A stretch of 64,000 nt of DNA, taken from Podarcis tiliguerta. Taxonomy: Eukaryota. The notes beneath the pieces are model-generated. The model did not search any database. It saw only the letters and a program-made list of their open reading frames with translations, and was not told the origin of the DNA. The position numbers and the translations under genes were made by a program. The stretch lies in assembly GCA_965153285.1 (NCBI GenBank), contig OZ229125.1. One strand, given 5' to 3'. Positions 12,231-58,362 of the stretch are shown here, piece by piece. Numbering within the stretch: position 1 is the first letter of the stretch; every line of letters begins with the position of its first letter.

Positions 12231-12293
12231 CTTCAAGGCGATCTCCTTCGCACGATCACTTCTCGATCTGGCCAACGACTCTATCCGAGACAT
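12231..12293 (-). CDS. ARHGEF2: ARHGEF2 (GEF-H1) canonical first coding exon, MSRIESLARSRSDRAKEIALK
   Basis: ATG at 12293, 21 codons, then donor AAG|gtttgt at 12230 (phase 0). The peptide closely matches the mammalian GEF-H1 N-terminus MSRIESLTRARIDRSRELASK, same length. Too short for the ORF track. Confidence 0.93.
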
Positions 12294-39013: not shown

Positions 39014-39146
39014 CTTTGACTTCCCAGTCATCTTCTTTAAGAAGCTGAGGGTTCGCCCCAGGGTGGTCCCCTCCCTCTGCGGGTGCACCTGGTCTTCGGC
39101 CTCCACCGTGGTGGCGTCCAGCCGCCCGCAGCTCCCAGCGCCAAAG
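39014..39146 (-). CDS. ARHGEF2: Long-isoform exon E: FGAGSCGRLDATTVEAEDQVHPQREGTTLGRTLSFLKKMTGKSK
   Basis: Acceptor ccatgctttcag|C, donor AAG|gtaggg; 133 nt, phase 2 to 0 (same exit phase as canonical exon 1). GTTLGRTLSFLKKMTGKSK resembles AKAP13 GTKVSRTFSYIKNKMSSSKKSK, which directly precedes the KEKEK/C1 region. Confidence 0.88.
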
Positions 39147-43606: not shown

Positions 43607-43646
43607 CCATTGGACAGGCTCACAGTGTCACCATAAAGGGAGATCC
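43607..43646 (-). CDS. ARHGEF2: Long-isoform exon D (40 nt): (G)ISLYGDTVSLSN(G)
   Basis: Strong acceptor ctcttctcccttcccttgccag| and donor AATGG|gtgagt. Phase 1 to 2, exactly what is needed to join exon C to exon E in frame. Confidence 0.82.
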
Positions 43647-46117: not shown

Positions 46118-46229
46118 CATCTGCTTCTGCCGGGTAGCTGTCGATGCCACTCATGGAAACAGATTTGGACAGAGAGCTACCATTGGAGTTCTGGGATGCA
46201 TGATATGCTTGCATCCTCTTGGAATGTTC
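46118..46229 (-). CDS. ARHGEF2: Long-isoform exon C: EHSKRMQAYHASQNSNGSSLSKSVSMSGIDSYPAEAD(G)
   Basis: Acceptor ctcattttcag|, donor GATG|gtgagt; 112 nt, phase 0 to 1. SSLSKSVSMSGI resembles AKAP13 SSPLTKSISLMTI. Confidence 0.87.
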
Positions 46230-47152: not shown

Positions 47153-47324
47153 CTGAGAGAATTCCTGGTCATCCTCCTCTTCATCCTGAGAGAGCATGGA
47201 CTCCGTCTCATCGTTGCTACGGATAATAGGGGCTCGGCGGGGGTCCCTTTGGCTCTGAGGATGTCCGTCCAGTTGCTCGGTGGAGGAGTCAACTTCCTCG
47301 TGGGCTAGTCCTTTCATACTCATG
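47153..47324 (-). CDS. ARHGEF2: Long-isoform exon B: (S)MSMKGLAHEEVDSSTEQLDGHPQSQRDPRRAPIIRSNDETESMLSQDEEEDDQEFSQ
   Basis: Acceptor cttccttttcag|C, donor CAG|gtatgg; 172 nt, phase 2 to 0. The junction reads QRSMSMKGL (cf. AKAP13 RRSFSLEGL), and ESMLSQDEEE resembles DSLVSLSEED. Confidence 0.87.
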
Positions 47325-52467: not shown

Positions 52468-52800
52468 CTTCGCTGATCAAAATCCGGGTCATCCTCAAGC
52501 ACTTTCCCTGGCTCCCAGCTGTGTCTCCGGAAGGAGTCGTAGGCATGACCAGAACTCCCAAGGATGCCCAACCTGCGCATGTTAACACCCAGGAATCGAT
52601 CTTCCTCTTCTTCCTCTTCCATCTCTTCCCAGCCTCCTGCGGGAGGCTCCACAGCTGACAAGCAGCGGCGCTTCTGGACCCGTGAAGGGCAAGGAGTGCA
52701 TTCACAGGGGCTCAGGACCAGCTCGGAGGCAGAACTGCTCATTCCCCAAGGAGCTCGTGGATCCAAAAGGCAGAAAGGCTTTGCGGAATGAAAAGGGGGG
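52468..52800 (-). CDS. ARHGEF2: Long-isoform exon A: (PPFH...)MSSSASELVLSPCECTPCPSRVQKRRCLSAVEPPAGGWEEMEEEEEEDRFLGVNMRRLGILGSSGHAYDSFRRHSWEPGKVLEDDPDFDQR; candidate ATG at 52742
   Basis: Acceptor ctctttctccag| before 52800 and donor CGAAG|gtaaac after 52468 (phase 2); open frame throughout. The acidic run and FRRHSWEPGK resemble AKAP13 EEEEMD...PFRRHSWGPGK. Confidence 0.85.
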
Positions 52801-54177
52801 CTGGAGAAAGAGGGTGCTGATGTTAAGAAAAGAGCATAGCCCAATAAACCATCACATATTTTTATTACCCTTGTACATACACTTGTATCAGTTTACCTGC
52901 AAAATCCACTCAACCACTTCTATCTATGGAACTGGCACTGTTACAGGCGCTACATAATACCTGTTCTGCATTGGTGAGAAATTAGGCTTTCTTTTCAGTG
53001 TGGCGGCACCCACACTTTGGAACTCCCTGCCATTTGACATCAGGCAGGCGTCTTCACTGTATTGTCATGGTGCTTTTTTAAGGTTTTAAAGAGTTGTTTT
53101 TAGCTGTTTTTAGCACCAATAATTTTATCGTTTTAGTCTTTCGTAAACTGCTTTGAGGGTTGTTGTTGTTTTATTTTTTACCATCAAGGAGTGTGTATGT
53201 GTTACTCATTTATTTCACTTGGGTCCTGAAATACTAAATGGAAAGATCCAACTCTGTAAAGATGCCTGATGACTCTCTCACAAGCCCCTTATTCAGGCAG
53301 AATCAATATATGCAGGTGGGGGGGGGGTGCCAGGATCATGCCCGCTGACCCTACCCACATCAACAGGCTCATACCTATGTAAGCAGCGGCACAGTTCAGG
53401 AAACCCAACCATCGTGGAAAGGCAGGGCCAACGGGCACAAACCCAATCTCACTCCCTTGTCTGGACAGGGATGTGCACACCTATTTGCAGGCCTGCCTGA
53501 GGCCTATTTAGTGTTGGCAAAGCGGGAACGCAATTTCTAGAGGAACCCAGAACCCCAGCCATCAAATCTACACCAGGGTTGGGGGGACCTCAGGCCCAGG
53601 GGCCAAATGTGGACCTGCAGGCATCTCCCCAAATACATTTTGGGGTGCGGGGTGTGAAAATGCCTCAGCCCCTCGGAGTTGGCGCCTTTGGAGCAGCTGT
53701 TTGTGAAAGGTGCCGAGAGTTCTTAAAAAGCCCCTATTCCCCCTCACAGAGCTACAATTCCCAGTTACCTGGGAAGACAGATATGTTTGTTAAGCCACTC
53801 TGGGAAATGTAGCTTTCTTAAGGGAATAAGGGATTCCTAACAACACTCAACAAACTGCAGCACCCAACATTTCTTTGAGGGAAGCCAGAGGGGCACCATA
53901 GTGCTTTAAATGTCTGGTGTGGATGTGCCTAGGCCAAATGCCTCATATACAGCTATAGGCCCTGGACCCCCATTATAAATGGATATTTTTTCCAAGATAC
54001 CTTTGCAACATTATCATTCCTAAAGCTGGCCCACAATAATTATAATTCCTGAGGCAACAACCCAAAGGGATCTGGTTTCTCACACACCACCAGCCTGGCA
54101 TTGGCCATTCAGGCCTACCTCACAACTACCAGCCAGGCCTAGAGTTGCTACGCTTTCTTCCAAAATATTAAAGACCG

Positions 54178-57720: not shown

Positions 57721-58362
57721 ATGGATGGATACAATAGTTGCATCTTCCAGGAGGCCTGAACCACCTAACTCCACCCCACTCCACCCCCCAGCTTCAGGAG
57801 GAAGCCTGTCCTAGGGCCCAAATAATTCACCTCTGCTCACCTGCTGTGCTGCTCTCTCCGCCAGTGCCTTCCACAGAGTACGAAAATAAGTTGTGGGCAG
57901 GATTGCAGCTGCCCCTAGGATGGCTCAGGGTAGAAAAGGAAACAGGATGATCTCAGCTTCTTTCCTGTTTCCACAGTCAGCTGGTGGGAACCTGTCCTTT
58001 TTTATTTTATCTTCCTTTATCTCCTGCACCATCAGCACTAAATCCTCCAGAAGGTCAGGGAGCCCCACGGTTCAGCTATGGAGGAGGAGGACCATGGCAG
58101 CCAGGAGGGAAGACATCTTCTCCAGGAGAGAACCTCTTGGGACTATTATTTCAGGTTCTCTTGGCTGTAAGGAAACTTAAAGGAGGAAGGAAGATGGGCA
58201 GAAAGAGGCTCTTGGCTGCCCCACCGTTGGCCTCCTTCGGCCACTGCCGTCCTGATAGTCCACTTCCCCTCCAAGTCCCTCTTCTCAAAATCCACGTCTT
58301 CGTTTCTCCACTTCCTCCACAATCCTGGCCCTGGTTCTGAGAATTAAGAAAGGAGAGCTTGC

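What the first reader, a model, noticed from the sequence alone, without database searches (positions are those of the whole stretch)
52503..52529. Conserved RRHSWEPGK PKA/14-3-3 switch in the long GEF-H1 arm
Seen: the codons encode RRHSWEPGK (Ser75 of the predicted isoform). Established: in AKAP-Lbc, PKA phosphorylation of Ser1565 in RRHSWGPGK recruits 14-3-3 and inhibits RhoA GEF activity, while canonical GEF-H1 uses a C-terminal 14-3-3 site (Ser885/886). Inference: the long isoform would carry a second, N-terminal cAMP/14-3-3 brake and could bind a 14-3-3 dimer bivalently. Further basophilic sites (RSMS, LSKSVS, LGRTLS) cluster in the same arm.
Basis: partly seen in the sequence, partly recalled or inferred. 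Interest (0 to 1): 0.7.

Follow-up and report, generated by a model that had tools for sequence, protein, structure and literature searches.

The report
Ancient phospho-motif in long GEF-H1 arm
The long form of a lizard's GEF-H1 (a RhoA activator) carries a short motif kept from fish to mammals and shared with its sister gene AKAP13; it is already published as an actin-binding element in human cells, and it likely doubles as a phosphorylation site that would hand the protein from actin to 14-3-3.

Summary
The motif is real. RRHSWEPGK (Ser75) is read on the minus strand in a spliced exon of the long ARHGEF2/GEF-H1 isoform of a lacertid lizard. [RK]RHSW is present in 104 of 104 orthologue records that contain the exon. 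The arm is truly homologous to the AKAP13 Ser1565 region: six of six intron phases match, with the same spacing after the serine. Lizard ARHGEF18 keeps RRHSW too; ARHGEF28 does not. The long isoform and this motif are already published (human ARHGEF2-219 RHSWGP, needed for actin association at adherens junctions, with no mention of PKA or 14-3-3). AKAP13 S1565A alone did not reduce 14-3-3 binding in a 2022 study. Canonical GEF-H1 already has two listed 14-3-3 sites (T114, S886), so this would be a third. RSMS is not conserved. Most likely this is an ancestral Lbc-family linear motif acting as a phospho-controlled actin/14-3-3 localisation switch rather than a direct catalytic brake. Its phosphorylation is untested. 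A new member of a known kind, with one testable, apparently unpublished link.

The parts
52503..52529 (-). RRHSWEPGK motif; Ser75 codon at 52520-52518
   Evidence: numbering; conservation
52468..52800 (-). Exon A, first coding exon of long ARHGEF2 (acceptor 52800, ATG 52742, phase-2 donor after 52468)
57841..57864 (-). 3' end of the upstream non-coding exon (CAG|GT donor at 57841); its 5' limit was not determined
47153..47324 (-). Exon B (phase 2 to 0); holds the stretch that aligns with the second actin-contact segment of human ARHGEF2-219
   Evidence: paper
46118..46229 (-). Exon C (phase 0 to 1) with the conserved LSKSVS motif
43607..43646 (-). Exon D, 40 nt (phase 1 to 2)
39014..39146 (-). 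Exon E (phase 2 to 0) with the conserved RTLSF motif; splices to the shared C1 exon left of the window (G000:C21 about 16732018)
12231..12293 (-). Coding part of the alternative first exon of the short isoform (MSRIESL..., 21 codons, phase-0 donor); identity with the canonical GEF-H1 start is recalled

Best explanation
RRHSWEP is an ancestral Lbc-family linear motif in the isoform-specific arm of long GEF-H1, homologous to the AKAP13 Ser1565 site, that likely helps anchor the protein to junctional actin as reported for the human orthologue and whose serine is likely a PKA-type phosphosite that would swap actin for 14-3-3. Shown here: the motif, the spliced exon, its conservation, the homology to AKAP13 and ARHGEF18. 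Predicted here: disorder of the arm. Shown by others in human cells: W29A/P31A abolishes actin co-IP. Inferred: phosphorylation of Ser75, the kinase, 14-3-3 binding, and competition with actin. The effect would be on where the GEF sits (release from adherens junctions), with any change in RhoA output secondary and shared with T114 and S886.
For: [RK]RHSW in 104 of 120 ARHGEF2 proteins examined; the other 16 lack the exon segment altogether. RRHSW is the second most conserved 5-mer of an arm whose median column conservation is 0.51 (43 non-redundant arms). It is also in a teleost ARHGEF2 (P0098). Six of six intron phases match lizard AKAP13 (2,0,1,2,0,1), with 16 codons between the serine and the next intron in both genes. 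Lizard ARHGEF18 has RRHSWEAP before a phase-2 intron. Four of the seven residues shared by the two lizard genes use different codons, so the constraint is on the protein. Residues 1-249 have pLDDT under 50 in an orthologue model. The basic pair and the serine are kept in all three paralogues, as a kinase site would require. AKAP13 S1565 is a listed 14-3-3 site, and mutating it together with T2467 abolished binding. Trp at +1 (7 sites) and Glu at +2 (at least 12, including GPSM2 RRHsME) occur among the 326 listed 14-3-3 sites, counted by eye. In the published model S28 lies in the actin contact patch and W29A/P31A abolishes actin co-IP.
Against: No source read shows phosphorylation of this serine in any ARHGEF2. 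[quoted passage not shown] The invariance of His, Trp, Pro and Gly exceeds what a kinase or 14-3-3 needs and fits a phospho-independent docking site equally well. The -3 Arg is Lys in 54 of 54 placental-type records. The actin evidence is co-IP plus a model of an over-expressed human fragment, and the second actin segment is poorly conserved and further away in the lizard. The arm starts only 74 residues before the serine, so it probably lacks AKAP13's PKA-anchoring helix (position recalled; my motif test did not locate it in AKAP13 and was uninformative).
Confidence: 0.45

Rival explanations
1. Phosphorylation-independent docking motif: RHSW-x-PG is kept because its side chains bind actin or another junctional partner, and the PKA/14-3-3 look is incidental or minor.
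For: W29A/P31A abolishes actin association with the serine intact. H, W, P, G and the upstream D/F are 88-100% conserved. [quoted passage not shown]
Against: The W/P mutant would also spoil a kinase or 14-3-3 site, so it does not separate the two readings (inference). The dibasic pair and the serine are kept across three paralogues while the residues after Trp vary. The S1565A/T2467A double mutant lost all 14-3-3 binding, so S1565 contributes.
Confidence: 0.25
2. One reading: PKA phosphorylates Ser75, a 14-3-3 dimer bridges it to the C-terminal site, and exchange activity on RhoA is directly braked, as described for AKAP-Lbc.
For: True homology to S1565. PKA/S1565/14-3-3 inhibition of AKAP-Lbc is stated second-hand in PMC5786306 and PMC6313912. 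The C-terminal RRRSLP site is present in 114 of 120 proteins examined.
Against: T114 and S886 already offer two sites. S1565 is redundant with T2467 in AKAP13. The effect of S885/886 phosphorylation on activity is itself contested. The published role of the arm is localisation.
Confidence: 0.18
3. The serine is phosphorylated, but by another basophilic kinase (PAK, Aurora, MARK/PAR1, RSK), or is read by a partner other than 14-3-3, for example to control turnover of the long isoform.
For: GEF-H1 S885 is hit by PAK1, PAK4, PKA, Aurora A and PAR1b, so RRxS does not name its kinase. The arm also keeps LSKSVS and RTLS. The long isoform is selectively depleted on infection.
Against: RRxS followed by a hydrophobic residue is the textbook PKA pattern (recalled), and the homologous AKAP13 site is assigned to PKA.
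Confidence: 0.12

Closest known systems
AKAP13 (AKAP-Lbc) Ser1565 PKA/14-3-3 site
   Same: FRRHSW-x-PGK core, position upstream of SL-GL, SKS-S and RT-S motifs and the C1 domain, six intron phases and 16-codon spacing.
   Different: Glu instead of Gly at +2 in the lizard (some fish AKAP13 also have Glu). ARHGEF2 lacks AKAP13's two phase-2 cassette exons, the RRAETF (T2467) site and the roughly 1,500 residues upstream.
Human ARHGEF2-219 / mouse Arhgef2-207 RHSWGP motif (PMC13696713; preprint PMC12776446)
   Same: Orthologous isoform and motif; the paper names RHSWGPG, MLSK and R-TFSF blocks that match exons A, C and E here.
   Different: The paper compares only human and mouse, assigns actin binding, and has 0 occurrences of 14-3-3 or PKA in the main text and none of these or of AKAP in 11 searchable supplements. 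The lizard has RR..E where placentals have KR..G.
Canonical GEF-H1 14-3-3 sites S886 and T114
   Same: Same protein; both sites are present in the lizard (P0001 RRRSLP at 1094, LRNKT at 335).
   Different: S886 has Pro at +2 (mode I) and is shared by all isoforms; Ser75 has Pro at +3 and is confined to the long isoform.
ARHGEF18 (p114RhoGEF) long isoform of lacertids
   Same: RRHSWE followed by a phase-2 intron and an F-S-L-D start.
   Different: RRHSWEAP, 12 codons to the intron; seen in 3 of 6 lacertid records only (the other 3 are shorter models), not tested in other taxa.

Membership tests
ARHGEF2 / GEF-H1 (Lbc RhoGEF subfamily) | C1, DH (RhoGEF) and PH domains in order, orthology by tree | tested here: met
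   Exon 97% identical to a named ARHGEF2; Pfam C1_1, RhoGEF, PH_16 over cut-off; downstream exons in the same contig; ARHGEF2 clade 100/100.
Long GEF-H1 isoform (ARHGEF2-219 type) | Distal promoter and isoform-specific N-terminal exons spliced to the shared C1 exon | tested here: met
   Five coding exons with GT-AG borders in frame, 244 codons; joints to 47324 and 57841 in contigs of runs X1 and X13. Only the two joints of exon A were seen in contigs, and RNA origin of the runs is the tool's guess.
Homologue of AKAP13 Ser1565 region | Positional homology, not only motif likeness | tested here: met
   6 of 6 intron phases, same motif order and spacing; an arm profile retrieves named AKAP13 proteins at E about 1e-8 to 2e-5.
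PKA substrate site | R-R-x-S-hydrophobic sequence in an accessible region (consensus recalled) | tested here: met
   RRHSW; only RRxS of the arm; arm pLDDT under 50. KRHSW in placentals.
PKA substrate site | cAMP-dependent phosphorylation in cells | not testable with these tools
   No data found; see Tried and rejected.
14-3-3 docking site | Mode I pattern with Pro at +2 | tested here: not met
   Pro is at +3, in AKAP13 too. Many listed sites also lack +2 Pro, so this excludes only the strict mode I class.
14-3-3 docking site | Phospho-dependent binding to 14-3-3 | not testable with these tools
   Needs binding assays with the phosphorylated site.
Bipartite actin-binding element of ARHGEF2-219 | RHSW-x-P segment plus a second segment about 25 residues downstream | tested here: inconclusive
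   First segment met; the second aligns to exon B (IIRSNDETESML) with low identity and about twice the spacing.

The most novel reading that the evidence does not exclude
RRHSW is a dual-use switch inherited from the single pre-duplication Lbc GEF: unphosphorylated it tethers long GEF-H1, AKAP13 and long ARHGEF18 to junctional actin, and PKA phosphorylation hands the arm to 14-3-3 and releases the GEF. This would recast AKAP13 Ser1565 as a localisation switch, explain why S1565A alone barely changes total 14-3-3 binding, and give cAMP (hormones, bacterial cyclase signals) a direct route to strip long GEF-H1 from adherens junctions.
Probability: 0.25. Interest if true: 0.62.

Novelty: new member of a known kind. 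Interest (0 to 1): 0.38.

Why it matters
The long GEF-H1 isoform was recently shown to hold the intestinal barrier together through an actin-binding arm, and the authors list its post-translational control as an open question. This work shows that one half of that actin site is the positional homologue of AKAP13's PKA/14-3-3 site and is conserved from fish to mammals. That gives a single-residue test (human S28) of whether cAMP controls junctional anchoring of a RhoA activator. The lizard sequence itself is ordinary; the value lies in joining two literatures.

Tried and rejected
Complex prediction of lizard 14-3-3 sigma with unphosphorylated residues 52-91: no answer (score 0.02, mark 0.34, alignment not used, controls not folded); not evidence either way. 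Run search: no holder is on record as RNA; not evidence on expression. First lay of reads over the five-exon stretch was not carried out, so only the joints of exon A were seen. A looser motif pattern was swamped by a genomic repeat (204 matches). PDB search of exon A: 3 hits at E about 0.2, unrelated. Pfam: no family for exon A or for 22 other window ORFs. Rfam: 0 matches in the window. Protein atlas: no usable hit for the arm. Phospho-evidence: the IP-MS of PMC13696713 searched no phospho modification and lists no peptide over the motif. The collecting-duct phosphoproteome of PMC10783575 has 0 WGPGK/WGPGR, but the file was cut and its rows are Swiss-Prot entries, so the isoform may not have been searchable. 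Diviani 2004, Meiri 2009 and a PKA-knockout phosphoproteome were not held and are cited second-hand only. A motif test for the PKA-anchoring helix failed even on AKAP13. Earlier findings: none. Rejected: chance match, DNA-level element (codons differ between paralogues), lizard-specific feature, and RSMS as a conserved site. No invertebrate or amphioxus sequence was examined.

Full report
Observation. Window 52529..52503 on the minus strand reads RRHSWEPGK. It lies in a 142-codon open frame whose Met-initiated part is 97% identical to the N-terminus of a named Podarcis muralis ARHGEF2 isoform of 1203 aa (P0001). The window holds five coding exons of the isoform-specific arm (52742-52468, 47324-47153, 46229-46118, 43646-43607, 39146-39014; 244 codons, GT-AG borders, in frame) and the alternative first exon of the short isoform at 12293-12231. 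The shared C1-DH-PH exons lie left of the window in the same contig. Contigs of 4 of 4 runs laid cover 52468 to 52803 or 52802, with no cover in the bins directly beside the exon. In runs X1 and X13 the printed loose ends match the start of exon B and an upstream exon ending CAG|GT at 57841; 68 loose-end rows were not shown. The runs are guessed RNA and differ from the window by a few letters, so they come from relatives. The upstream exon puts an in-frame stop 135 nt above the ATG, so Ser75 is the right number.

Conservation. Of the 120 ARHGEF2 proteins listed by a search with the part of the protein downstream of the motif (best 120 of 1036), 104 carry [RK]RHSW in the arm and the other 16 lack the exon segment entirely. 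RRHSWEPG is in 32 of 32 sauropsid records with the exon and RRHSWEP in 15 of 15 amphibian and 2 of 2 marsupial records; the one monotreme has RRHSWGP and 54 placental-type records (named placentals and unnamed Logan entries) have KRHSWG. A teleost ARHGEF2 has RRHSWEPG. Among 43 arms under 85% identity, median column conservation is 0.51, and RRHSW (0.94) is second only to RTLSF (0.95). LSKSVS is conserved; RSMS is not (Arg in 8 of 43). An orthologue model has pLDDT under 50 for residues 1-249, so these are islands of constraint in a predicted disordered arm.

Relation to AKAP13. A profile of the arm retrieved 79 proteins from 1.84 billion, including named AKAP13 proteins from a ray, a bichir, a dragonet, an agamid and a bat. 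In this genome the AKAP13 locus (G000:C19) has exons matching A to E and the C1 exon in order, with the same intron phases 2, 0, 1, 2, 0, 1 (6 of 6; about 1 in 700 if phases were equally likely) and 16 codons between the serine and the next intron in both genes. AKAP13 adds two phase-2 cassette exons. Four of seven shared residues use different codons. Lizard ARHGEF18 has RRHSWEAP before a phase-2 intron (3 of 6 records, the other 3 being shorter models). None of 114 sauropsid ARHGEF28 records has an [RK][RK]xSW motif before the DH domain. The DH-PH tree gives four clades with ARHGEF18 and ARHGEF28 as sisters (99/97; 25 rows, unrooted). With one fly orthologue for the four genes (PMC6781438, passages), the simplest reading is that the motif predates the duplications and was lost in ARHGEF28 (inference; no outgroup examined).

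What is known. PMC13696713 (abstract, sections 6, 8, 12, 16, supplement 6 read; 11 of 12 listed supplements searched, one without text and one further file too large) describes human ARHGEF2-219 and mouse Arhgef2-207 at adherens junctions. It names RHSWGP (residues 26-31) as one half of an actin interface by AlphaFold modelling and shows that W29A/P31A abolishes actin co-IP. It does not mention 14-3-3 or PKA. Its preprint PMC12776446 (passages) also names the motif and has 0 occurrences of 14-3-3, PKA or AKAP. PMC10099770 (passages and supplementary table 2 whole) lists AKAP13 S1565 as LSPFRRHsWGPGKNA and GEF-H1 S886 and T114 as 14-3-3 sites. [quoted passage not shown] The RRAETF motif of T2467 is in AKAP13 and ARHGEF18 but not in ARHGEF2. 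PMC5786306, PMC6313912, PMC5666830 and PMC8583009 (passages) restate the PKA/S1565/14-3-3 model and the many kinases of S885. The original papers were not held. Ten literature searches listed no paper that links the long-arm motif to S1565, PKA or 14-3-3; most hits were seen only as listings, and subscription papers and preprint supplements are outside the library.

Mechanism. Best reading (0.45): the motif anchors the long isoform to junctional actin, and phosphorylation of its serine by a PKA-type kinase hands it to 14-3-3 and releases the GEF. The sequence fits: it is the only RRxS of the arm, and Trp at +1 and Glu at +2 both occur among the 326 listed 14-3-3 sites (7 and at least 12, by eye). 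Pro sits at +3, so it is not a strict mode I site. The phosphorylation, the kinase, the 14-3-3 binding and the competition with actin are all inferred. Against the direct brake, T114 and S886 already give two sites and are kept in the lizard, and the model site in AKAP13 is redundant. Against my own reading, no phospho-evidence exists for this residue, placentals have Lys at -3, and the second actin segment is weakly conserved in the lizard.

Verdict. Observation confirmed; interpretation partly supported. The isoform, the motif and the AKAP13 site are each known. The homology between them, shown here by exon structure, and the resulting actin versus 14-3-3 switch hypothesis appear not to be in print in the library searched. 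New member of a known kind; interest 0.38.

Noticed in passing
window 57841 to about 58440 (-): A non-coding first exon 5 kb upstream of exon A; one contig runs 600 letters beyond the joint, so the 5' leader may be long. Four upstream ATGs lie in the 560 genomic bases above the donor, all out of frame and closed before the main ATG.
   Followed up: partly
window 46118-46229 (-) versus P0001 371-377: The arm's LSKSVSM repeats the LSKSVST motif of the shared region; AKAP13 has LTKS-S and LSKSVS at both places. A pair of conserved PAR1/MARK-like sites (kinase assignment recalled).
   Followed up: partly
window 39014-39146 (-): RTLSF is the most conserved 5-mer of the arm, is shared with AKAP13 and ARHGEF28 (RTFS) and is the only predicted helix of the arm. 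It may matter as much as RRHSW.
   Followed up: partly
P0125, P0126, P0136 (frogs): Three frog models replace exon A by another first exon that carries an S-V-S or R-S-A-S motif and joins exon B; no counterpart was looked for in the lizard.
   Followed up: no
P0144, P0152, P0154, P0155, P0132, P0135, P0138 (mammals): Intermediate isoform models start at or shortly before MLSKSVS and so keep LSKSVS and RTLS but drop RHSW.
   Followed up: no
G000 contigs C1-C10, loci L002-L031: An abundant repeat encodes RRHSWQPG by chance in one frame; many copies come in same-strand pairs about 5.8 kb apart, as terminal repeats of a retroelement would.
   Followed up: no
P0036, P0048, P0004: Split gene models that look like the ARHGEF2 arm are annotated as 'AKAP13-like' (lungfish, sawfish) or 'nucleoprotein' (Komodo dragon), so the arm is often mis-named in databases.
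   Followed up: partly
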